The notes below the pieces were generated by a model. The model saw only the letters and a list, made by a program, of their open reading frames with translations, was not told the origin of the DNA and did not search any database. A stretch of DNA of 64,000 nt, taken from NCBI GenBank assembly GCA_048937405.1, contig JBHLNF010000001.1, positions 416,001-480,000 on the forward strand, given 5' to 3'. Position 1 is the first letter of the stretch; the number at the start of each line of letters is the position of its first letter. Below, piece after piece: positions 9,526 through 19,576 of the stretch. The translations under genes and the position numbers were made by a program. This stretch comes from Promethearchaeota archaeon. GTDB taxonomy: Archaea > Asgardarchaeota > Lokiarchaeia > Sigyniarchaeales > SOKP01.

Positions 9526-10179
9526 ATGGATACGAATAGACCAAGTTTAGCGAGAATTAAGATTAAGTTTCCAGATCAGATATGGATTTCTGAAATTTTT
9601 AATAACTATCCGGATATAAAAATGGAAATTTCCCACTTTCTACCTTATGATCTTGAGGAATCCATTGGAAATAGTCTAATTGAAATATTACATTATGATA
9701 TCGATTCCATTATAGAAGAGATAAAAAATCATCCTTCTGTCTTCGAGTTAAGTATATTAGAGAAGGAAGAAAATAAAGTTAAATTTAATGTGAAAACAAA
9801 AGATCCATATTTATTATATGCTATAATAAAATGTGGAGTTTTAGTGAACTTTCCAGTAAGAGTGGAAGAAGGATATGCATATTGGAGACTAATTTCAAGT
9901 AGGGACAGGATAGATCAACTCTTAACTCTTTTTGAAGAGAAAAATATTAGTTATGATTTGTTAAGAATTGGTGTATCACCATATACTATTGAAGATGATA
10001 AAAGTAAATTAACTTTTGATGAATCAAATATCCTTGATAAAGCTATTTCTTCAGGTTTCTTTGAAATTCCAAGAAAAATATCTTTAGAAGAATTAGCTAA
10101 CGAATTGGGCAAATCTAAGTCAGCGCTATCAGTAATGCTTAGAAAAATAATCAAAAAGAAAGTCTTATTTGAGAAATAA
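9526..10179 (+). CDS. Bat/HTH_10-family transcriptional regulator
   Basis: C-terminal GFFEIPRKISLEELANELGKSKSALSVMLRK. Confidence 0.85.
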   Translation: MDTNRPSLARIKIKFPDQIWISEIFNNYPDIKMEISHFLPYDLEESIGNSLIEILHYDIDSIIEEIKNHPSVFELSILEKEENKVKFNVKTKDPYLLYAIIKCGVLVNFPVRVEEGYAYWRLISSRDRIDQLLTLFEEKNISYDLLRIGVSPYTIEDDKSKLTFDESNILDKAISSGFFEIPRKISLEELANELGKSKSALSVMLRKIIKKKVLFEK

Positions 10180-10203
10180 TTAATAAGAAATACAAAAAAA
10201 AAG

Positions 10204-11018
10204 TTATACCCATTCTTCTTTTAAAATATTTCCTTTTATACCTACGACAACTAATTTAATTGGAACTTTTCTACTTGCTCGTTTAGTCGCTTCTTGAGCT
10301 AAAGCTAATAGACCAGAACAACAAGGAACTTCCATAATAACAACTGTAAGTGTATTTATTTTTGCATCATCAATTAGAGTCTTTATTTTTTCTATATACA
10401 CTTCTTTGCCTTGGTCGAGTTTGGGACAAGCTATTGCGATTGACTTTTGTTTCATGAAATCTCTATGAAAATCCCCATATGAAAATCCTACACAATCTGC
10501 TGAAAGCAATACATCAGCTCCTTGGTAATAAGGTGCTCGAGGATTAATTAAATGCATTTGAACAGGCCATTGTCTTAACGCAGAAGGGATTGTTCCTGAT
10601 ATTTCTGTTTGTGTTTCTGGTCCCTCAAAAACCATTGTTTGAGCAGAAGGACAACCACAATGAGAGTTATTATCAGAAAGAATTTCCTGCATTTGTCCCA
10701 TTTTAGTTTTTTCATTTTGTTTCATAGATTCTAAATGTTTCTCAACAGCCTCCTCATCAAATTCTAAAGCTTCCCTTTCAATTATTTCAAGTGCCCCCTC
10801 AGGACAACCAGAAATGCATGCTCCAAGTCCATCACAGAAAACGTCGTTTATTACCCTCGCTTTTCCGTCGATAACTGCGAGCGCGCCTTTTATGCTATAT
10901 AAATCATTCTTTATATTACTGCACAGTCGACTACGCAATTACCACATCCAGTACATAGATCTTCATCAATCTTGATTATTTTTCTTTTTAATAATTTTTG
11001 TTGTTTTACTTCAGTCAT
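10204..11018 (-). CDS. [4Fe-4S] ferredoxin-domain Fe-S protein, 261 aa after removing a 29-nt insert (exons 11018-10919 and 10889-10204)
   Basis: Exon 1 is MTEVKQQKLLKRKIIKIDEDLCTGCGNCVVDCA; the join gives CAEGALAVIDGKA; then CDGLGACISGCPEGAL, QWPVQ, ACPKLD, MEVPCC. The ORF track misses exon 1. Confidence 0.85.
10890..10918 (-). other. candidate BHB/BHL-type pre-mRNA intron (29 nt)
   Basis: Sense GUGC-AG^U-AAUAUAAA-GAAUGA-UUUAUAUA-GCAU-AA^A; GUGC pairs with GCAU; removal restores frame and CAEGAL. Confidence 0.75.
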
Positions 11019-11053
11019 GATTATATCAAATGGATTTGGCTATATATTTTTGA

Positions 11054-11068
11054 TTTCGAACATGTTCA
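11054..11068. promoter_or_regulatory. palindromic operator TTTCGAACATGTTCA
   Basis: Perfect GAACATGTTC core about 40 bp upstream of the ferredoxin-domain gene; identical 15-mer inverted at 15025-15039. Confidence 0.65.
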
Positions 11069-11134
11069 TAGGATATTAAAATGCAATTATAAACATTGTA
11101 AAAGAGATGACACAAAAAATTAAAAAAAAGAATA

Positions 11135-12502
11135 TTAAGATTTGATATAATAATCATATTTTTTTTTAATCAATATAGCAATGGTTACACTTAACACTGC
11201 AACAATCAGGACTAAAATATAACCTGGAATTTCAGAACTTGGTGTAGCGAGTCCCCCATCTGTAATAATCCAAGAAAAGTTAGTAATGATAAATTGTTTT
11301 GCATTTTCGGAAGCATTGCTATATTTTGAATTACCTGCATTAAAGTTTACGTTAGGTTGTAAGGGTAATTGCGACCAGCCTAATAATAAATTATCATAGT
11401 TGGATGTTGACAATTTAACTTTATAGAACATATCTGTCATATCTGTCACTCTCGAAACATTCCAGCTACCGAGGGGCTGGTTGAATGAAGACGTCCAGGA
11501 GAACATGTAAGCCATATTTGTCACTCTTGAAACGTTCCAGTTATCGAGGGGCTGGTTAAATGAAGTATCTGAAAACATAGATTCCATATTTGTCACTCTC
11601 GAGACATCCCAATTATTGATGGGTTGGTTAAATGAATCAGCTGATAGGAACATCCCTTGCATATTTGTCACGATCCAGACATCCCAGTCACTGATGGGCT
11701 GGTTGAATGAATTAGCCATGTAAAACATAAGTTCCATGTCATTTACGCTCGAAACATCCCAACTTCCGATCGGCTGGTTGAAGGAATCGGCCCCCCGAAA
11801 CATAGCACTCATATCTCTAACACTTGAGACGTCCCAGCTTCCGATGGGTTGGTTGAAGGAATGAGCATTATAGAACATATTACTCATGTCTGTTACATTC
11901 GAGACATCCCATCCGTTCATACTATCACTATCACCGAGATTAGGGCAATACCAAAAAGCTCCATGTAATATAGTAGTCCCCCTTAAATCCAAATTATCAG
12001 TTGCAGTAAGTTCTAGATTTTTACAACCATAAAAATAATGCCCCGAATTTCCTAATCGTAAAGATCCCCATTGTTTGATATCAATTATCTTTAACCGATC
12101 TCCTTCATCATTAAAACACCACCCAATAATCATTCCTGTGATCGTAATGGTGTAAACCCCTTCTGATGCATACGTATGTAAAATGTTAGGGTCATTGAAA
12201 AGCGTGATTAGATCGCTGTTTCCATCGCCCCAAAAAACTGTAAAATCATAGTTACCATCCCATTGTAGTGGTAATTTCACTTGATTACTGTTGCTGGAAT
12301 CCGAGCTTGTCTTTGTTGTATCCCAGACTGATATAAAATCCATTGGATCTGATGTAATAGGTTTAAGAAATTCACATTTAGTAGTTATTAGCTTTTGCTC
12401 GTGAAATAGATATGTAAATACCGAAAAGGTCACAATTGTCAAAGAAAATAATATTATCGTTGCACTTAATTTAACTGATTTGAATTTCATTAATCTAAAC
12501 AC
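11135..12502 (-). CDS. DUF285/BspA-like surface repeat protein with C-terminal IPGY-TM-basic sorting signal
   Basis: N-terminal hydrophobic segment, VFWGDG PKD-like motif, repeats of MFxxAxSFNQPIGSWDVSxV, C-terminal EIPGY + TM + KKK. Confidence 0.88.
   Translation of the reverse strand: MFRLMKFKSVKLSATIILFSLTIVTFSVFTYLFHEQKLITTKCEFLKPITSDPMDFISVWDTTKTSSDSSNSNQVKLPLQWDGNYDFTVFWGDGNSDLITLFNDPNILHTYASEGVYTITITGMIIGWCFNDEGDRLKIIDIKQWGSLRLGNSGHYFYGCKNLELTATDNLDLRGTTILHGAFWYCPNLGDSDSMNGWDVSNVTDMSNMFYNAHSFNQPIGSWDVSSVRDMSAMFRGADSFNQPIGSWDVSSVNDMELMFYMANSFNQPISDWDVWIVTNMQGMFLSADSFNQPINNWDVSRVTNMESMFSDTSFNQPLDNWNVSRVTNMAYMFSWTSSFNQPLGSWNVSRVTDMTDMFYKVKLSTSNYDNLLLGWSQLPLQPNVNFNAGNSKYSNASENAKQFIITNFSWIITDGGLATPSSEIPGYILVLIVAVLSVTIAILIKKKYDYYIKS
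11440..11915 (-). repeat. coding tandem repeat, about 6 units of 72-75 bp
   Basis: Recurring ggttgaatgaa/ggttgaaggaa and gacatccca units encoding the 24-25-aa repeat. Confidence 0.85.
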
Positions 12503-12826
12503 ATTTTCTCATTAATTTTTTTTACATTTTTGTATTTCTTAAGTTAAATTATATCTATACCTTTCCTAAATAAAAAAATATCGAATTTGTGAGAACAGAG
12601 AATATCAATAAATTTTATACATTTAAAACTATAAACCTAGATTTTATAAAAAGTTCCTACAGAAATAAAAAAGAAAAATTATGATAAGAAACATAAGAAT
12701 TTATGTATTCATTTTAATCTTAAGTATGTGTTACGCCACTTTATAAGTAAATTTTCCTTAATTAGATATTATCTTAATAAATCAAATTGAATAGATAAAA
12801 TACAATAAAAAGAGATAAAAGATAAA

Positions 12827-13015
12827 ATAACGGAAGATTTTAAAATAATTGAAGTAACTAATGTTATGAAGGCTGGTAGAACCGTTAAGATAAAAATTTG
12901 GGAAGAATTCATTGAAATTGCGAAAAATAATAAAGTTGATAAAGTCTATAAATATGGTAAATTGCATTTTATGCTCCTTAGAGATGGAATTTATCAAATA
13001 AAAAAGAAAAAATAA
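12827..13015 (+). CDS. small hypothetical protein (62 aa from ATA; 49 aa from ATG 12866)
   Basis: Open frame (I)TEDFKIIEVTNVMKAGRTVKIKIWEEFIEIAKNNKVDKVYKYGKLHFMLLRDGIYQIKKKK with protein-like composition. Confidence 0.5.
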   Translation: MTEDFKIIEVTNVMKAGRTVKIKIWEEFIEIAKNNKVDKVYKYGKLHFMLLRDGIYQIKKKK

Positions 13016-13043
13016 AAAAAAATATAAATCTAAAGTAAAGATA

Positions 13044-14948
13044 TTAAATACCTAATTTTCTCCTATTCTTTTCAATGTGAGTTAACATCGCATCTACAGC
13101 GTGAATTGGATCAGTTTCGACATGTAAAATTCCACCTGTTAAATCTTTGCAATCTTCAGTTAGAAGTTTTACTAAATCAGCACCTCCAGTAACTGTAGGT
13201 ATTGGATTGACATAAGTATATAGACCAAACGCTAGGGCAAATATTGCATCGATCGTCGCTTTTTGTTCCATGTATTCTGGAGCCGCAGCTATTACTGGTA
13301 AATCAGGAATTGGTACACCACCAAGTGCTGCAGAAATTATTCCTATCAAATCAGCAACTCTTCCTGTATCTGTACATGTTCCGTAGCTAAGAACAGGGGG
13401 AATTCCTAATTTTTCACAAACTGCTTTTAAACCAGGACCTGCCAATTCCTTTGCTTCTGGTAAACATAATCCTCCTACTTGCAATGCCCCATTTCCACAA
13501 CCCATTGATAATACCAAGACATCTCTTTTGATTAATTCTTTAGCTACTTGAATTGTATGCACGTCTTGTCCATAATCCCTAAGCGTTGTGCAGGATACCA
13601 GTCCTGCTACACCTCGTATGGTACCATTCTTAATTACTTCGAGCAATGGTTCAAGTGTACCTCCAAGAGCAGTAAGTATACTCTCACTAGAAAAACCCAC
13701 GACCGCTTCATTTAAATCTAATCCTGTTATAGGTTCAATATTTGCTTTACGCTCTTTAAAATTATCAATCGCCATTTGTAGTAATGTCGCGGCTTGTTCT
13801 TCAGCTTTATCTGGCTTATAATCTACCCTTTCAGTAATACCTTCAAAAGCTACAACTTCAGAAACTGGAACTAGTTTGAATTTATATTTCTCTGCATATA
13901 TAGGATCAATTGGCATACAACAATTCATATCACAGATAAATGCATCAATACAACCACTTGCCAAAATCGCCTCTTGCATTATCCAATTTCCTGTAAATCC
14001 ATAAAAAACGTCATCCATTTCCCATCTTTGTATCATTTCTTGTCCAGTCTCGATATTTGCAATTATTCTCAATCCTTTTGCACCAACTGCTTTTGCTTTT
14101 TCTTGCCATTCAGACTTTCTAGCCAGTTGGACCATCGCAAATCCTAAAAATGGTTCATGCCCATTTGGAAGAATATTTACATAATCAGGATCTAATACAC
14201 CTAGGTTAACTCTCATTTTATGTGGTCTTGGAATATTGAATAAGATATCTTGAGTAAATTCATTAACAATTTGACTTTGATATGCCATTGCTATCCCTAA
14301 TCTCATAGCCTTGAGGGCTAAACTTGCATAATATCCATCTACATTTGTTAGACAAGAGCTTGTTGAAAACATCATTTCACTATATAATCCGCCAGGAAAA
14401 ATTCCTAATTTTCTCCATACCTCCTGTCTTTCTTTCGGTGCTAGTTTCTCAACAATTTTGCTTTTCTCATCATAAGGGATATTAAAATCTTCCTTTACAA
14501 AATAATATAGTCTTAGAGCAATATCTTTTTCTTGACCAGACGTGTCTAAACCAAGACGTTCAGCAAAAACTTTTAGTTTCTCAGGTTCGGAGATTTTAAA
14601 TGGGGTTTTACCCTCTACTGTAGCTTTTAAGGTTTTCAAAGTTGTTTCAGTATGATAATGGTAAGTAGATGCTCCCATAACATTCCTAAGAAGCATCATA
14701 CGCATTGCCATACCATCTGCTGTAATTCCACAGACTCCACGTTTATCTATTGATGAATCTGCTCTACAAGGACCATTTGAACATAGATCACAACGTGCAC
14801 CTTTTAAACAAAATGGACATCGTTTATCGGGATCTCCTCCAAATCCCTGTGCTTCAAAACGATCCCAAATATTATTCATACCATCTTTTTTAATCCTTTC
14901 ATAAACTTTTTGGACGGATTTATGATAAGAGATTCTATCATCTTCCAT
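13044..14948 (-). CDS. cooS: anaerobic Ni-carbon monoxide dehydrogenase catalytic subunit
   Basis: CDLCSNGPCR..GVCG B-cluster, NGHEP, IETGQE, DMNC, GCG, GTCTDTGR, PEYMEQKA. Confidence 0.9.
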   Translation of the reverse strand: MEDDRISYHKSVQKVYERIKKDGMNNIWDRFEAQGFGGDPDKRCPFCLKGARCDLCSNGPCRADSSIDKRGVCGITADGMAMRMMLLRNVMGASTYHYHTETTLKTLKATVEGKTPFKISEPEKLKVFAERLGLDTSGQEKDIALRLYYFVKEDFNIPYDEKSKIVEKLAPKERQEVWRKLGIFPGGLYSEMMFSTSSCLTNVDGYYASLALKAMRLGIAMAYQSQIVNEFTQDILFNIPRPHKMRVNLGVLDPDYVNILPNGHEPFLGFAMVQLARKSEWQEKAKAVGAKGLRIIANIETGQEMIQRWEMDDVFYGFTGNWIMQEAILASGCIDAFICDMNCCMPIDPIYAEKYKFKLVPVSEVVAFEGITERVDYKPDKAEEQAATLLQMAIDNFKERKANIEPITGLDLNEAVVGFSSESILTALGGTLEPLLEVIKNGTIRGVAGLVSCTTLRDYGQDVHTIQVAKELIKRDVLVLSMGCGNGALQVGGLCLPEAKELAGPGLKAVCEKLGIPPVLSYGTCTDTGRVADLIGIISAALGGVPIPDLPVIAAAPEYMEQKATIDAIFALAFGLYTYVNPIPTVTGGADLVKLLTEDCKDLTGGILHVETDPIHAVDAMLTHIEKNRRKLGI

Positions 14949-15024
14949 AAATAATCACTTCTCTCTAATTTTTCTAAAAATTGTAGTATTTAACAAATAA
15001 ACTGATTTAATTTAAAATTGTTGT

Positions 15025-15039
15025 TGAACATGTTCGAAA
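15025..15039. promoter_or_regulatory. palindromic operator TGAACATGTTCGAAA
   Basis: In the divergent cooS / NADH oxidoreductase intergenic region; reverse complement of 11054-11068. Confidence 0.65.
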
Positions 15040-15106
15040 GGAATTTACTTAAAGATTACATTATATAATAAAAACTTTAATATAAAATGTAAAAACTAGT
15101 TATGCA

Positions 15107-16459
15107 ATGAAAGTTGTAATAATAGGGAATAATGTTGCTGGGACATTCACCGCCCAGAACCTCAGAAATCTTAACAATGATATTGAAATAGATATATATA
15201 CCCAAGAAAGATACCCTTACTATACAAGAGTCAATCTACCAGAATTAATATCTGAAAAAGTAACAATTGATGATTTAATTGTTTTTAAAGAAGATTGGTA
15301 CAAAAATAAGCGTCTAAATTTATATCTAGAAAAAAGAGTTAATACTCTCAATCTAAGTAATAAAACATTACAGATAGAAGGGGAAAATGATCCGATCATC
15401 TATGATAAACTTGTTTTAGCACTTGGAAGTACTCCAAATATTCCTCCTATTAAAAATGCTGTTGAAATGAAAAATGAAAACAAGGGATTATTTACATTAA
15501 GAAGTATTGATGATGCTTTAGACATAAAAGATTTTATCAAAAATAAGAATGCTAAAAATGCTATCATTATAGGAGGGGGTTTACTCGGTTTAGAATTAGC
15601 AAATCAAATAAATAATACCAATTTAATGACAACAGTAGTAGAATTTTTTCCCCGATTATTACCAAGACAGTTAGATATTGAATGTGGTGCGATGCTAAAA
15701 GAAGAAATCGAAAGTAGAGGAATTAAGGTTGTTTTAGATGCAGTCACAGAAGAAATTCTTGGAAATAGTGTAGTTTCGGGAATTAAATTAAAAAATGGAA
15801 AAACAATAAATGGGGATCTTGTATTAATTCAGGCTGGCATTAGACCTACAATTGATTTGGCTAAAAATGCTGGATTAAATACAAATAGAGGAATAATGGT
15901 TGATGATTTTTTACAAACCAGCGAAAAGGATATCTTTGCTGTAGGAGATTGTATAGAATACAAAGATCAAATATGGGGTATTATTCCAGCGTGCATGGAA
16001 CAATCAAAAATTGCAGCAGCTTCATTACTTGGATTAAAAAAAGTGGATTACAAGGGGACTATACCGAAAAATACCCTTAAAATAGTAGGATTAGATTTAA
16101 CCTCGATAGGAATGATAAATCCTGACAAGGAACAAACGGGTGGTTGGGAAATCCTAAGAAGGGCTGATAAGAAGGATTGTTGTTATCAAAAATTAGTATT
16201 AAAAGATAATAAGTTAAAAGGAGCAATATTATTTGGAGAAAATAAAATAATGTCTTACGTATATAATAAAATGGAAGAAAATGTTGATAAGGCTGAACTT
16301 AAAAAATTGTTAGATTTAAGTACTTATACTTGTAATAAGTGTGGTTTAGAATATGATGAGGCCGAAATGGGTATTCTCTTTGAGGATTTACCTCCTGATT
16401 GGAAATGTCCAAATTGCAAATGTACCAAAAAAGAATTTGTAGGAAATAGCAGTATCTAA
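15107..16459 (+). CDS. NADH:rubredoxin oxidoreductase-like flavoprotein with C-terminal rubredoxin domain
   Basis: IIGGGLLGLE, IFAVGDC; C-terminal YTCNKCGLEYD..FEDLPPDWKCPNC. Confidence 0.88.
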   Translation: MKVVIIGNNVAGTFTAQNLRNLNNDIEIDIYTQERYPYYTRVNLPELISEKVTIDDLIVFKEDWYKNKRLNLYLEKRVNTLNLSNKTLQIEGENDPIIYDKLVLALGSTPNIPPIKNAVEMKNENKGLFTLRSIDDALDIKDFIKNKNAKNAIIIGGGLLGLELANQINNTNLMTTVVEFFPRLLPRQLDIECGAMLKEEIESRGIKVVLDAVTEEILGNSVVSGIKLKNGKTINGDLVLIQAGIRPTIDLAKNAGLNTNRGIMVDDFLQTSEKDIFAVGDCIEYKDQIWGIIPACMEQSKIAAASLLGLKKVDYKGTIPKNTLKIVGLDLTSIGMINPDKEQTGGWEILRRADKKDCCYQKLVLKDNKLKGAILFGENKIMSYVYNKMEENVDKAELKKLLDLSTYTCNKCGLEYDEAEMGILFEDLPPDWKCPNCKCTKKEFVGNSSI

Positions 16460-16485
16460 TTATATTAGAAAAGAGGTGGTTATAG

Positions 16486-16632
16486 ATTTCAGTATATCGC
16501 TGTAAGAGATGTAATTATCTTTATATAAATGAAGAAAAGAAGATACCTTTTGAAGAATTAGATGAAAATGAATATAAATGTCCTAAATGTCGTTCTTCAA
16601 AAAAATTCTTTGTTAAAAAGGAAATTCAATAA
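16486..16632 (+). CDS. rubredoxin-like protein (48 aa, ATT start)
   Basis: (I)SVYRCKRCNYLY..PFEELDENEYKCPKCRSSKKFF; GAGGTG SD 7 nt upstream; in-frame TAG directly before ATT. Confidence 0.75.
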   Translation: MSVYRCKRCNYLYINEEKKIPFEELDENEYKCPKCRSSKKFFVKKEIQ

Positions 16633-16888
16633 AAAACAAAAAATTGATTAGTTTATAAAATTCATTAGCTTATAAAACCAAAAATAACAAAATCTTCTTT
16701 ATTTTATGTAATATACTTACCCTTTATTTCAATTTAATAGATTTTATTCAAAATAATAGGTTAGATTATTATTTGTTTAATCTAATTGGATCAATTTATA
16801 AAATATTAAATTAATATATTTAATATATTTTCAATTTCAAACCATATAATCAAATTCTACAACTTAAAATTAAAAGGATGTGTTAAAT

Positions 16889-17058
16889 TTGGCAAAATGG
16901 GAATGTCAAGCTTGTGGATATGTTTATGATGAAGAAGCTGAAGGTACAAAATTTGAAGATTTACCAGACGATTGGACTTGTCCTGTATGTGGCGTAGTCA
17001 TGATAGGATCTCCCATTATGGCGTAAGAAAGGACATGTTCGAGAAGATTGAAGGTTAA
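16889..17058 (+). CDS. rubredoxin, 46 aa after removing a 29-nt insert (exons 16889-16997 and 17027-17058)
   Basis: Spliced product [46 protein letters not shown]; TTG start. Confidence 0.88.
16998..17026 (+). other. candidate BHB/BHL-type pre-mRNA intron (29 nt)
   Basis: GCGU-AG^U-CAUGAU-AGGAUCUCCC-AUUAUG-GCGU-AA^G; GCGU pairs with GCGU; removal gives CGVGKDMF. Confidence 0.75.
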
Positions 17059-17257
17059 ATAGTATAATTTATAATTAAAATAGTTTTTTTTTTAAATTTT
17101 TTAAATTCTAATATTAAATTAATAGTAATTTTGCATAAGATTTGATTTCTAAATCTATAGAAATAAATTTATTTGAGATTTATATTAAAAATCATATAAA
17201 TTAAAGATTTAATAATACTATCAGCCTAAAATTCTTTTGAAACAATTTTTTATTTAA

Positions 17258-19576
17258 TTAAGAAAAAAAATCAAACCAAGATGTGTCTAGTAACCCAGTT
17301 CTTCTACTTTTATTTAGTTTAAGTACAAAAGGTTTAATTTTAGTCAATAAAATGTGTGGTTCATATTCCCAAGCACCCTTTTTATCAAAACTAACACAAA
17401 TTATATTTCCATCTGGAATCTGTAGAAATTCTTTTAACATCAGACCATAAAGTCCTACTTGAGGTAGAGAAGTAAAAAAAGAATAATCATCTGGCTTAAA
17501 ATCTACAACATATACAACATTACATCTGAATTGAATTAAATCAATGTGTCCTAATAGAAAAACATTATTTCGAACAGATTTCCAGATGGGAACTTCAATT
17601 GCATAACTATTCTCATCTTCATTTAGAATAACAGTAAGAATTGGTTTATGTCCTGGTTTTAGAAATCCATCTGCCTGATATTTTTTATATTCTTTCTGAG
17701 CGATTTTTGAAAGGGCATAATTTTGATTATAAATATGTAGTTCACCTTTTTCTTGTAGTTCTTTAATAAAAGGATTGATTATTGGAGCTTTCAAAGGTTC
17801 TTTATTCGAACCTTGGATACTATAATCAGAAGCACGTGGATTTGATGAATCATTAAAGGCATTCAGTGGTATTATATCACCTTCCATAATATCAGTGAAA
17901 AATTTATATAAATTACAATTCAGAAGGGAATTATTAAACTTATTGATTGAATGTTGTTCATCGTTCCATTTAAATGAATATTTTACACCTTGATGATAGA
18001 AATCTTTAACTTTTAAACTTTTCAATCTTTTTAAATCATTTTTTAACTCAATTTTATGATCAGAAATATTTTTTTCAATAAAATCATCAAATTTCTTAAA
18101 AATTTTAGGTTCAGTGAATTGAGAACCTCTTTTAACAAATTTAGCTAAATTTGCAACACTATCTCCCCCATATATATCTAATTTTTTTACAAAATCTAAA
18201 GGCTTTAAATCAGAATTTTTAAAAATTTTAAGTAAAAATTTTGTATCATGAGATGGATTCTGTTCTAATAATTCTTCAAAATCATTACTAGAATAATTGT
18301 GTTTTTTGATTTTTGGAATATGTTTAATAATATAAGAATAAATAGGGCTTCTATTTGTAGTTGCTGTACTATAATCCCAATTTTCACCAATTAATTCTTT
18401 TAGACTATCCCTCGTAACACAATCTTCAAAAATTTTATTTTGTTTTATTGAAAAATATAATAATGAGATTGCAATTAATTGTGGAAAAGTATATCTATTA
18501 CTTTGTGAATCTTTTTTAACTTTAAATCCATTTTTAATAGCGATATCAAATAGTTCTAATGCTTTACTTTTGGTTTCATTTTTTATTTGTGATTTGAAAT
18601 AATTTACTCTATTAGCTTTTAAAATATAATGATCCAAAAAATCTGATACCTTATCTCTAAAAGCTAATTGATCAATATAATAGTAATTATGGAGAATATA
18701 CATATAAATTGGAGAAAAAACTTTTTCAACAAGTTGGTAATTTTCAAAATTATTTATAATACTTAGAAAATCTCCCTGTTCTAAATTATTATTATTTTGA
18801 TATCGCAAATACAAATAACAAAAAGCAGCTGAGTAATATTTAGGATCCTTTGTTTCTGGAGCAGACTTATAAAACCTCTTTATCTTTTCACTAGTGTTTA
18901 CACATTGAATGTAATTTAGTCCATTTATAAATAATTCATCTACTTGGATGAGATTTTCTTCTAAATTTAGATTTTTTTTTATATCGTTTATGTAATAAAT
19001 AATATCATCAAAATAGTTCTCATAATTAGTTAATTTATAATTAATTATTGGTCTTGAAAGATTTTTATATTTAGGTAATTCACTAAGAAGTCTTACATAA
19101 TAATTTTTTGTACGAGAGAGATTGTCCTTCTGAAGATTTAATCGCACAGCAAGTTCTTTTACTTTTAATTTTTTTCCTATAAGATCTAATCCAATAAAAA
19201 TGAGAGAACATGCAGTATATTTAACATCCTTTATGGGTAAATTATAATATAAATTGTTAAATTGTTCAGATTCATCTAATCCAGAGTTATTTCTTAAACT
19301 GTCTTGAAAAATATTGAATAATTCCTTAACAGAAAATGTAGTATCTCCTTTGTTTTTTAATTTTTCTTTGAATTCTTTTAAAGTTTGGATTAAATCAAAT
19401 TCAAACATGTTTTTTTTAGAAAAAATAGTTTTGTTAGTAGGGGAAAGATTTTCCTGCAATTCATTGATTTGAGTATTAATGAGATTATTGTCAAAACATG
19501 AACTATTTTGAGAATTCTTAAAGCGCGAAGGATTTTTTGTACAAGTATATTTTTTTTTATTGTTATCATTTGTCAT
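17258..19576 (-). CDS. large protein with TFB/cyclin-like repeats and C-terminal PD-(D/E)XK (RecB/Cas4-like) nuclease
   Basis: IEVPIWK..GHIDLI..VVDFKP..PQVGLYG; helical repeats such as YTACSLIFIGLDLIGKKLKVKELA. Confidence 0.6.
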   Translation of the reverse strand: MTNDNNKKKYTCTKNPSRFKNSQNSSCFDNNLINTQINELQENLSPTNKTIFSKKNMFEFDLIQTLKEFKEKLKNKGDTTFSVKELFNIFQDSLRNNSGLDESEQFNNLYYNLPIKDVKYTACSLIFIGLDLIGKKLKVKELAVRLNLQKDNLSRTKNYYVRLLSELPKYKNLSRPIINYKLTNYENYFDDIIYYINDIKKNLNLEENLIQVDELFINGLNYIQCVNTSEKIKRFYKSAPETKDPKYYSAAFCYLYLRYQNNNNLEQGDFLSIINNFENYQLVEKVFSPIYMYILHNYYYIDQLAFRDKVSDFLDHYILKANRVNYFKSQIKNETKSKALELFDIAIKNGFKVKKDSQSNRYTFPQLIAISLLYFSIKQNKIFEDCVTRDSLKELIGENWDYSTATTNRSPIYSYIIKHIPKIKKHNYSSNDFEELLEQNPSHDTKFLLKIFKNSDLKPLDFVKKLDIYGGDSVANLAKFVKRGSQFTEPKIFKKFDDFIEKNISDHKIELKNDLKRLKSLKVKDFYHQGVKYSFKWNDEQHSINKFNNSLLNCNLYKFFTDIMEGDIIPLNAFNDSSNPRASDYSIQGSNKEPLKAPIINPFIKELQEKGELHIYNQNYALSKIAQKEYKKYQADGFLKPGHKPILTVILNEDENSYAIEVPIWKSVRNNVFLLGHIDLIQFRCNVVYVVDFKPDDYSFFTSLPQVGLYGLMLKEFLQIPDGNIICVSFDKKGAWEYEPHILLTKIKPFVLKLNKSRRTGLLDTSWFDFFS

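What the first reader, a model, noticed from the sequence alone, without database searches (positions are those of the whole stretch)
10204..17058. Putative splicing-controlled iron/redox regulon (XBP1/HAC1-like logic) in an Asgard archaeon
SEEN: the two inserts are 6 kb apart and unrelated in internal sequence. They share length (29 nt), phase (after the first G of a codon), boundary consensus GYGY-AG^U...GCRU-AA^R, a premature stop, and position 1-2 codons after the 4th Cys of an Fe-binding motif. Both sit in a CODH/rubredoxin/FprA oxidative-stress cluster. Two independent random frameshifts are unlikely to share all of this. KNOWN: eukaryotic XBP1 is switched on by non-spliceosomal excision of a 26-nt frameshifting intron with RtcB ligation. 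INFERENCE: this may be a family of short mRNA introns that makes Fe-protein synthesis depend on EndA/RtcB activity, possibly gated by metal or redox state. Both motifs are relaxed, so they would need a broad-specificity EndA. Whether splicing is regulated at all is speculation.
Basis: inference. Interest (0 to 1): 0.9.

Follow-up and report, generated by a model that had tools for sequence, protein, structure and literature searches.

The report
tRNA-type mini-introns, no iron regulon shown
Two iron-protein genes of this Asgard archaeon are each broken by a 29-base insert shaped like a tRNA intron. The same kind of insert also breaks at least eight unrelated housekeeping genes, so this is general mRNA splicing by the tRNA enzymes, and an iron-specific switch is not shown.

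Summary
A 29-nt insert sits at window 10890-10918 (-) in a 4Fe-4S ferredoxin-domain gene. Another sits at 16998-17026 (+) in a rubredoxin gene. Both fold as a 4-bp helix followed by a bulge. Cutting after the second bulge nucleotide, the archaeal EndA rule, gives exactly the sequence of intron-less orthologues (CAEGAL; CGVGKDMF).

- **Ferredoxin insert:** present at the same spot in 6 of 54 genomes of the genus. One copy has a different hairpin with two compensatory pairs. The spliced frame is under purifying selection (dN/dS 0.12-0.23).
- **Rubredoxin insert:** found only in this genome.
- **Machinery:** the genome encodes a catalytic and a structural EndA subunit, which points to the (alpha-beta)2 type, and RtcB. 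Its tRNA introns have the same geometry and size.

I verified eight further 29-34-nt inserts of the same type: rnhB, uppS, mvk, pfk, elp3, methylmalonyl-CoA mutase, an HdrA-like gene and a PurM-like gene. The shared length and boundaries are therefore family traits.

Iron proteins are 2 of these 8 independent cases, against a 6-9% background (P = 0.08-0.16). Splicing was not observed because no RNA run was listed, and regulation is untested.

This scan has already reported the same intron family elsewhere in this genome and in other Asgard genomes.

The parts
10919..11018 (-). Exon 1 of the ferredoxin-domain gene. It holds 33 codons plus 1 nt and carries CTGCGNCVVDC, the first 4Fe-4S motif.
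   Evidence: Pfam Fer4 families match positions 1-20 of 24 and then stop at the exon end. Sequence read.
10890..10918 (-). 29-nt BHB-type intron, phase 1. Layout: H helix GUGC, bulge AG^U, an A.A mismatch, a 7-bp hairpin with a 6-nt loop, H' GCAU, bulge AA^A.
   Evidence: It is absent in the 26 intron-less orthologues retrieved, which read TGTGCAGA(A/G)GG. It is present in 6 of 54 genomes of the genus. 94.7% of cells are paired and there are 2 compensatory pairs.
10204..10889 (-). Exon 2 of the ferredoxin-domain gene. It starts (E)GALAVIDGK..., holds the second Fe-S motif CDGLGACISGCPEGAL, and has a C-terminal domain with no Pfam match.
   Evidence: The spliced CDS is 261 codons, with dN/dS 0.12-0.23 between intron-bearing alleles.
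16880..16997 (+). Exon 1 of the rubredoxin gene. It holds 39 codons plus 1 nt and carries both CxxC pairs.
   Evidence: Pfam Rubredoxin positions 1-42 of 47, E = 5e-13.
16998..17026 (+). 29-nt BHB-type intron, phase 1. Layout: H helix GCGU, 3-nt bulge AG^U, an interrupted 8-bp hairpin with a 4-nt loop, H' GCGU, then AA^G. The 3' cut lies in an internal loop, so the motif is relaxed.
   Evidence: The minimum-free-energy fold shows exactly this helix, bulge and helix. 29 orthologues lack it and read GGxGTxGGxAAxGAxATG. DNA similarity in three relatives ends at or within two bases of 16997.
17027..17058 (+). Exon 2 of the rubredoxin gene, (G)KDMFEKIEG-stop.
   Evidence: The joined product [15 protein letters not shown] matches the orthologues.

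Best explanation
Both inserts belong to a genome-wide family of about 30-nt tRNA-type (bulge-helix-bulge) introns in protein-coding genes of this Promethearchaeota (Asgard) archaeon.

Proposed mechanism:
1. In the pre-mRNA, the last bases of exon 1 pair with the 3' end of the intron to form a 4-bp helix flanked by bulges.
2. The splicing endonuclease EndA, which has a catalytic and a structural subunit, cuts after the second nucleotide of each bulge.
3. RtcB joins the exons.
4. This restores the frame and the conserved motifs CAEGAL and CGVGKD.

Unspliced mRNA gives a 35-residue stub for the ferredoxin-domain gene and a rubredoxin with a wrong C-terminal tail.

What is shown: the anatomy, the exact match of the predicted junctions to intron-less orthologues, conservation with compensatory change for site 1, selection on the spliced frame, and the presence of the enzymes.

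What is inferred: that the cut and the ligation really happen.

That the two introns lie in iron-protein genes of one redox cluster is most likely coincidence, or a side effect of where such helices can form. It is probably not a regulatory design.
For: - **Junctions.** Excision by the EndA rule gives TGTGCAG|AAGGCGCG. Locus L003 has the identical intron-less sequence, and all 26 intron-less orthologues retrieved read C-A-E-G-A. For rubredoxin the rule gives GGCGTAG|GAAAGGAC = GVGKD, as in 29 orthologues.
- **The cutting rule.** Cleavage between the 2nd and 3rd bulge residues is stated for the cbf5 introns in PMC2738675. tRNA introns of this genome obey it too. tRNA-Gly(GCC) reads UGCC.AA^U...GGUG.AA^C with a 31-nt intron, and tRNA-Thr reads GCAG.AC^A...CUGC.AG^U with a 29-nt intron.
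- **Chance.** The probability of the helix pattern at a given site is 0.0027.
- **Site 1 across genomes.** It is at the same spot in 6 of 54 genomes, and the reversed control pattern gave no matches. G029 has a different hairpin of the same total length. 94.7% of cells are paired against 17-54% when the partner columns are slid, and two pairs change on both sides.
- **Selection.** dN/dS of the spliced frame is 0.12-0.23 at dS 0.5-1.5.
- **Intron conservation.** The intron is 29/29 identical in three genomes whose gene bodies differ by 17-19%.
- **Enzymes.** There are two EndA genes. The C27 copy keeps the Y/H/K catalytic motif. The C8 copy lacks the His and aligns to the structural half. RtcB is present. 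PMC5829648 reports the (alpha-beta)2 type with the broad-specificity loop for Asgard.
- **Same architecture elsewhere.** Eight other genes carry it, several as the only Pfam match of their family in the genome (rnhB, uppS, pfk).
Against: - No spliced RNA has been seen.
- The rubredoxin intron occurs in this one assembly only. Covariation and selection cannot be tested for it, and a recent disabling insertion or an assembly variant is not excluded.
- Its 3' cut site is in a 5 x 7-nt internal loop rather than a 3-nt bulge.
- Both compensatory pairs at site 1 come from a single lineage (G029).
- Counting the two genes of the finding, 4 of 10 known intron hosts are Fe or Fe-S proteins. Some bias toward such genes is therefore not excluded.
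Confidence: 0.8

Rival explanations
1. One reading: the two introns form a splicing-controlled iron/redox regulon. The yield of Fe proteins would be gated by EndA/RtcB activity in response to metal or redox state, with XBP1/HAC1-like logic.
For: - Both hosts bind iron, lie 6.1 kb apart in a CODH, rubredoxin and flavodiiron cluster, and are split just after the fourth Cys.
- A third host (HdrA-like) is split right after a Cys codon.
- Counting everything, 4 of 10 hosts are Fe or Fe-S proteins against a 6-9% background.
- A frameshifting intron would in principle allow on/off control.
Against: - The same intron type sits in rnhB, uppS, mvk, pfk, the mutase and a PurM-like gene.
- Without the two hypothesis-generating genes, the Fe share is 2 of 8 (P = 0.08-0.16).
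- In elp3 the split motif (GHKVD|KIE) holds no Cys.
- The rubredoxin intron is in 1 of 30 orthologues and the ferredoxin intron in 6 of 54 genomes. Relatives run the same cluster without them.
- The two introns share nothing beyond the generic BHB features.
- One pair of ten introns within 7 kb is expected by chance with P = 0.13.
Confidence: 0.06
2. One or both inserts are disabling insertions, so the genes are pseudogenes. Alternatively, the rubredoxin insert is an assembly or population variant, and nothing removes it.
For: - The rubredoxin insert is found only in this metagenome-type assembly (29 contigs, 5.7% contamination estimate).
- A second rubredoxin domain exists on the neighbouring reductase fusion, so loss could be tolerated.
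Against: - For the ferredoxin gene this is excluded in practice. Six species-level genomes keep both exons open, with dN/dS 0.12-0.23.
- For rubredoxin, the insert has the helix, bulge and helix at the exact offsets (P about 0.003) and the family's typical length of 29 nt.
- Both rubredoxin exons are intact, and rule-based excision recreates GVGKD.
Confidence: 0.08
3. The insert stays in the mRNA and the ribosome deals with it. This would be either translational bypassing (T4 gene 60 or mitochondrial byp type) or a programmed frameshift that reads through the insert.
For: - The inserts are short hairpins with a stop codon near the take-off point, as in gene 60.
- At site 1 in G000, an AUA followed by UAA could pair with a downstream AUA.
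- The exon-2 frame happens to be open through the site-1 insert.
Against: - Matched take-off and landing codons are missing or lead straight into a stop. At site 1, GCA to GCA lands before UAA, in G000 and in G029.
- At site 2 the zero frame has no stop until the last codon of the insert and no matching landing codon.
- No slippery heptamer is present.
- Neither route gives the orthologue sequence, whereas BHB excision does.
- The same geometry is seen in tRNA introns of this genome.
Confidence: 0.03

Closest known systems
BHB intron in the cbf5 (pseudouridine synthase) pre-mRNA of Crenarchaeota (Watanabe 2002; Yokobori 2009, PMC2738675)
   Same: [quoted passage not shown]
- Cut between the 2nd and 3rd bulge residues by a hetero-oligomeric EndA.
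- Placed after the first base of a codon inside a conserved motif.
- Patchy gain and loss among relatives.
   Different: - Here the hosts are metabolic and redox genes in an Asgard lineage.
- At least ten genes in one genome carry such introns, all 29-34 nt.
- Splicing of cbf5 was shown by cDNA; here it has not been observed.
Archaeal tRNA introns, including the intron-rich tRNA genes of Asgard archaea (PMC5829648; bioRxiv 10.64898/2026.10.13.758758)
   Same: - Same helix and bulge geometry and cutting rule.
- Same size class in this genome (29-31 nt).
- Same enzymes.
   Different: - The host is an mRNA, so removal decides the reading frame.
- The outer helix is built from coding sequence.
HAC1/XBP1 unconventional splicing (IRE1 plus tRNA ligase or RtcB)
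   Same: - Non-spliceosomal removal of a short frameshifting intron (26 nt in XBP1, from my own knowledge).
- Ligation by a tRNA-type ligase.
- The unspliced message encodes a different C-terminus.
   Different: - The nuclease there is IRE1, which cuts in the loops of two hairpins and is switched on by stress.
- Here the cuts lie in bulges around a 4-bp helix, the EndA type.
- No IRE1 RNase domain was found (without a positive control).
- Nothing shows regulation.
Programmed translational bypassing (phage T4 gene 60; byp elements of Magnusiomyces mitochondria)
   Same: A short, stop-containing hairpin insert inside an ORF that is otherwise under selection.
   Different: It needs matching take-off and landing codons. 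That requirement was tested here and not met at either site.

Membership tests
Archaeal BHB (EndA-dependent) intron | A central 4-bp helix with a 3-nt bulge on each strand, with the cut after the 2nd bulge nucleotide | tested here: met
   Site 1 reads GUGC/GCAU with bulges AGU and AAA, and its outer helix CGACU/AGGCG has one mismatch (perfect in G029). At site 2 the 5' half is canonical in the MFE fold, and the 3' cut lies in an internal loop, which is the relaxed type.
Archaeal BHB (EndA-dependent) intron | Rule-based excision yields the mature, functional sequence | tested here: met
   The predicted junctions encode the same residues as the 26 (site 1) and 29 (site 2) intron-less orthologues, and for site 1 the DNA is identical to locus L003.
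Archaeal BHB (EndA-dependent) intron | The structure is kept by compensatory change in relatives | tested here: inconclusive
   At site 1, two pairs change on both sides and one mismatch is repaired, but all of these are in one lineage (G029). Site 2 occurs in a single genome, so it cannot be tested.
Archaeal BHB (EndA-dependent) intron | The genome encodes the splicing endonuclease (a broad-specificity type for relaxed motifs) and the RtcB ligase | tested here: met
   There are two EndA genes, one catalytic (Y/H/K) and one structural, and both exceed the TIGR00324 cut-off. RtcB scores 564 bits. The literature reports the (alpha-beta)2 type with the L1 loop in Asgard.
Archaeal BHB (EndA-dependent) intron | The spliced RNA (and the excised intron) is observed | not testable with these tools
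   No RNA run was listed for this stretch.
HAC1/XBP1-type regulated unconventional splicing | An IRE1-type RNase that cuts in the loops of two hairpins | tested here: not met
   The cut sites lie in bulges beside a 4-bp helix, not in hairpin loops. Pfam Ribonuc_2-5A was not found in the genome, but the tool's controls could not ring, so that part is weak.
HAC1/XBP1-type regulated unconventional splicing | Splicing is switched by a stress signal | not testable with these tools
   There is no expression data.
Programmed translational bypassing | Matching take-off and landing codons flank the gap, and translation resumes in the right frame | tested here: not met
   At site 1, GCA to GCA lands in front of UAA, in G000 and in G029. 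At site 2 there is no matching landing codon.
Regulon (a shared cis element restricted to functionally linked genes) | The element is restricted to, or clearly enriched in, the functional class and is conserved with it | tested here: not met
   Eight further hosts were found, six of which are not iron proteins. The independent Fe share is 2 of 8, P = 0.08-0.16. The element is present in only 1 of 30 and 6 of 54 relatives.

The most novel reading that the evidence does not exclude
Splicing of these frameshifting micro-introns is not merely constitutive. EndA/RtcB capacity would limit how much functional protein is made from intron-bearing genes. RtcB is metal-dependent and, in eukaryotes, sensitive to oxidation (from my own knowledge). 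The cluster of intron hosts among Fe-S and redox genes would then reflect selection for such a post-transcriptional brake. This would be an archaeal forerunner of XBP1/HAC1-type control.
Probability: 0.05. Interest if true: 0.85.

Novelty: new member of a known kind. Interest (0 to 1): 0.55.

Why it matters
In the papers I could search, EndA-type splicing of an archaeal mRNA is confirmed only for cbf5, and PMC2738675 says so explicitly.

If these introns are spliced as inferred:
- Asgard archaea, the closest prokaryotic relatives of eukaryotes, routinely need their tRNA-splicing enzymes to express ordinary metabolic and redox genes.
- Gene callers mis-annotate such genes as truncated or frameshifted.

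This bears on how mRNA came to depend on splicing before the spliceosome, and on the annotation of Asgard genomes.

For this finding in particular, the useful result is negative. The attractive iron-regulon reading is not needed to explain the shared features.

Tried and rejected
- **RNA evidence.** No RNA holder was listed for window 10100-17200.
- **Descriptor census.** A genome-wide scan (4-bp helix plus inner helix plus ORF fusion) was swamped by boundaries between adjacent genes. It gave 10162 real hits against 12663 decoy hits, and stricter variants showed no length peak.
- **Whole-genome comparison with a relative.** The comparison still recovered the mutase, ferredoxin, PurM-like and HdrA-like introns, plus a 28-nt insert in ribosomal protein L11 of G006.
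- **Introns shared by both genomes.** Three filters were tried and none separated real introns from gene boundaries and AT-rich chance helices: the descriptor conserved in both genomes, an SD/start-codon filter, and a conserved short first exon.
- **HdrA-MvhD hits.** Several apparent 25-86-nt inserts in the HdrA-MvhD family proved to be real gene boundaries, with a stop, GGAGG and ATG. These genes are fused in G006.
- **Donor copies.** None was found for either intron in G000 or G006.
- **IRE1 domain search.** It found nothing, but the search had no positive control.
- **Rejected readings.** Translational bypass, frameshift read-through and the pseudogene reading were considered and rejected for site 1. 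The pseudogene reading stays open at low odds for site 2.

Full report
**1. What is there**

On the minus strand, an ORF of 33 codons ends ...C-T-G-C-G-N-C-V-V-D-C-A and then runs into a stop. A second frame resumes with GALAVIDGK... and carries the second 4Fe-4S motif. Removing the 29 nt at 10918..10890 joins TGT GCA G to AA GGC GCG and gives CAEGAL.

On the plus strand, the rubredoxin frame (CPVCGV) runs on into VMIGSPIMA-stop. Removing 16998..17026 joins GGC GTA G to GA AAG GAC and gives [16 protein letters not shown].

Pfam sees the Fer4 and Rubredoxin models break off exactly at the two exon ends. Close relatives are deposited as Promethearchaeota, so the organism is an Asgard archaeon.

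**2. Shape**

In both RNAs, the four bases before the last two of exon 1 pair with the four bases before the last two of the intron.
- Site 1 reads GUGC/GCAU and site 2 reads GCGU/GCGU.
- A 3-nt bulge AG^U follows on the 5' strand, and then the intron's own hairpin.
- The minimum-free-energy fold of site 2 shows exactly this arrangement. The fold of site 1 shows it with one A.A mismatch.

The cut between the 2nd and 3rd bulge residue is the rule given for the cbf5 introns (PMC2738675).

As an internal control, tRNA introns of this same genome obey it and have the same size:
- tRNA-Gly(GCC): UGCC.AA^U...GGUG.AA^C, 31 nt.
- tRNA-Thr: GCAG.AC^A...CUGC.AG^U, 29 nt.

A random site has the helix pattern with P = 0.026, and with an inner helix as well P = 0.0027.

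**3. Relatives**

*Ferredoxin-domain gene.*
- I retrieved 30 orthologous loci in the genus. The 26 without an insert read TGTGCAGA(A/G)GG, the predicted splice product to the base. Further Promethearchaeota and bacterial homologues read C[AP]EGAL.
- A pattern search finds the insert at the same spot in 6 of 54 genomes of the genus, with no hits for the reversed control.
- Five copies are nearly identical. G029 has another hairpin of the same total length.
- On the six-sequence alignment, 94.7% of cells pair, against 17-54% for slid partners. Two pairs change on both sides (U-A to C-G, A-U to G-C), and the A x G mismatch of the outer helix becomes C-G. All of these changes are in one lineage, so I call the covariation supportive, not conclusive.
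- The spliced frame has dN/dS 0.12-0.23 at dS 0.5-1.5 between intron-bearing alleles. The gene has therefore stayed functional with the intron in place.
- The intron is 29/29 identical in three genomes whose gene bodies differ by 17-19%. The exon flanks are somewhat more conserved in intron-bearing alleles than in intron-less ones (flank/body divergence 0.59 against 0.83).

*Rubredoxin gene.*
- All 29 orthologues retrieved lack the insert and read GGxGTxGGxAAxGAxATG.
- DNA similarity in three relatives ends at or within two bases of the last base of exon 1.
- The two closest assemblies gave no orthologue.
- This intron is so far private to the window's genome. Its reality as a spliced intron rests on its shape and on the exact junction only.

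**4. Enzymes**

The genome has two EndA genes.
- The 197-residue copy on C27 keeps the Tyr, His and Lys of the active site and aligns to the catalytic half of the two-repeat enzymes.
- The 200-residue copy on C8 lacks the His and aligns to the structural half.
- This is the (alpha-beta)2 make-up that PMC5829648 reports for Asgard together with the broad-specificity loop.
- RtcB is present.
- ARAGORN finds only 21 tRNA genes, 14 of them with an intron and several at unusual positions. This fits an intron-rich tRNA set.

**5. Is it an iron regulon?**

Earlier notes of this scan listed other mRNA introns in this genome, and I checked them myself. I also compared the genome with 2.54 Mb of a relative (G006) without using any structural descriptor.

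Verified cases are listed below. In each, the break is at a conserved motif, and cutting restores either the orthologue or paralogue sequence or the family's conserved motif.

| Gene | Length (nt) | Boundaries | Restored motif |
|---|---|---|---|
| rnhB | 29 | UGGC.AG^A/GUUA.AA^A | GIDEAGRGSVLGP |
| Methylmalonyl-CoA mutase | 31 | AUGG.AA^A/CUGU.AU^C | not recorded |
| HdrA-like protein | 34 | UUGU.AG^A/ACAA.AA^U | REHC\|SW |
| PurM/AIRS-like protein | 29 | ACGU.AA^G/GCGU.AU^C | not recorded |
| uppS | 30, in frame with a TAG | helix only 3 of 4 | splits DG\|NRR |
| pfk | 31 | GCGG.AG^U/CCGU.UU^A | GGG\|DCPGLN |
| elp3 | 31 | GUGG.AC^A/CCAU.AA^A | GHKVD\|KIELIIMGGTF |
| mvk | 31 | helix 3 of 4 | GKTILFGE\|HFVVYG |

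G006 in turn has a 28-nt insert in ribosomal protein L11 that G000 lacks.

- The shared length is a family trait. The ten lengths are 29, 29, 29, 29, 30, 31, 31, 31, 31 and 34.
- Phases are mixed.
- AG^ is frequent (5 of 10) but not universal.
- Iron proteins among the eight independent hosts are Elp3 and the HdrA-like protein, so 2 of 8. The background is 6-9% of 1921 conserved ORFs carrying Fe-S-type Cys motifs. This gives P = 0.08-0.16.
- Counting the two genes that generated the idea gives 4 of 10, but that is not a fair test.
- One pair among ten introns within 7 kb has P = 0.13 by chance.
- Within this cluster most genes bind iron anyway.
- A device that mattered for control of the cluster should be conserved with it. 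Instead, most relatives have the same genes without the introns.

I therefore reject the regulon as unsupported. I note that a mild bias toward Cys/Gly/Ala-rich motifs cannot be excluded. Such motifs are the G+C-rich spots of a 29% G+C genome, where a 4-bp helix can form.

**6. Rivals**

- *Bypassing* fails the take-off/landing test at both sites and in G029.
- *Frameshift read-through* has no slippery site and would not give the orthologue sequence.
- *The pseudogene reading* is excluded for site 1 by selection. It remains a small possibility for site 2.
- *Assembly error* is excluded for site 1, which is in six assemblies. For site 2 it could not be checked.

**7. Known or new**

The mechanism is that of the cbf5 pre-mRNA intron of Crenarchaeota. 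PMC2738675 states that no other archaeal gene had confirmed pre-mRNA splicing. My searches found no paper reporting BHB introns in Asgard protein genes, and the 2026 preprint on Asgard tRNA introns does not treat mRNAs.

Within this scan, the same family has already been reported for other genes of this genome and for other Asgard genomes. These two introns are therefore further members. The new content here is:
- the comparative support for the ferredoxin intron;
- the EndA typing;
- the negative test of the iron-regulon idea.

Noticed in passing
G000 contigs C7, C17 and C25 (outside the window, except for the Fd-Rd pair): The ten verified mRNA introns look spatially clustered. Three pairs lie within 12 kb: ferredoxin-rubredoxin at 6.1 kb, uppS-mvk at 9.9 kb, and rnhB-elp3 at 11.6 kb. 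Random placement predicts 0.23 such pairs (P = 0.003). Six of the ten reached me as leads from window-by-window readers, so ascertainment bias is possible.
   Followed up: partly
Exon-1 ends of the ten introns (for example window 10919-10925 and 16991-16997): Five of ten exon-1 ends read AG| followed mostly by a purine (CAG|A, UAG|G, CAG|A, UAG|U, GAG|A). The 4-bp helix is G+C-rich relative to the genome. This may reflect an insertion-site preference, or it may be chance in a small sample.
   Followed up: no
G000 C13:~235,600 and C28:~496,000 (outside the window): MvhD-like genes downstream of HdrA-like genes carry an in-frame TGA in a conserved FACWK-TGA-GYG motif. This is probably selenocysteine.
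   Followed up: no
G000 C13:235.5k, C26:140.4k, C28:495.9k, C19:54.9k and 131.5k, compared with G006: HdrA-like and MvhD-like genes are separate (stop, GGAGG, ATG) in G000 but fused into one ORF in the relative G006. These boundaries mimic 25-86-nt inserts in a protein-versus-genome comparison.
   Followed up: yes
G006 (CP070831.1) about 1,129,381-1,129,408, in locus L120: The ribosomal protein L11 gene of the relative carries a 28-nt frameshifting insert that G000 lacks. It is probably another member of the same intron family, polymorphic within the genus.
   Followed up: partly
window 10850-10965 (-): In intron-bearing alleles, the coding sequence on both sides of the intron is complementary. 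G000 has GGUAAUUGCG/CGCAGUUAUC and G029 has UGUAGU/ACUACA plus CGCCU/AGGCG. The exons seem to have adapted to build the outer helix. Flank divergence relative to the gene body is 0.59 in intron-bearing alleles and 0.83 in intron-less ones.
   Followed up: partly
window 17258-19576 (-) and 11135-12502 (-): A 772-residue protein next to the rubredoxin gene has no NCBIfam match (Pfam was not run on it). A PARCEL-repeat surface protein sits between the ferredoxin-domain gene and CooS.
   Followed up: no
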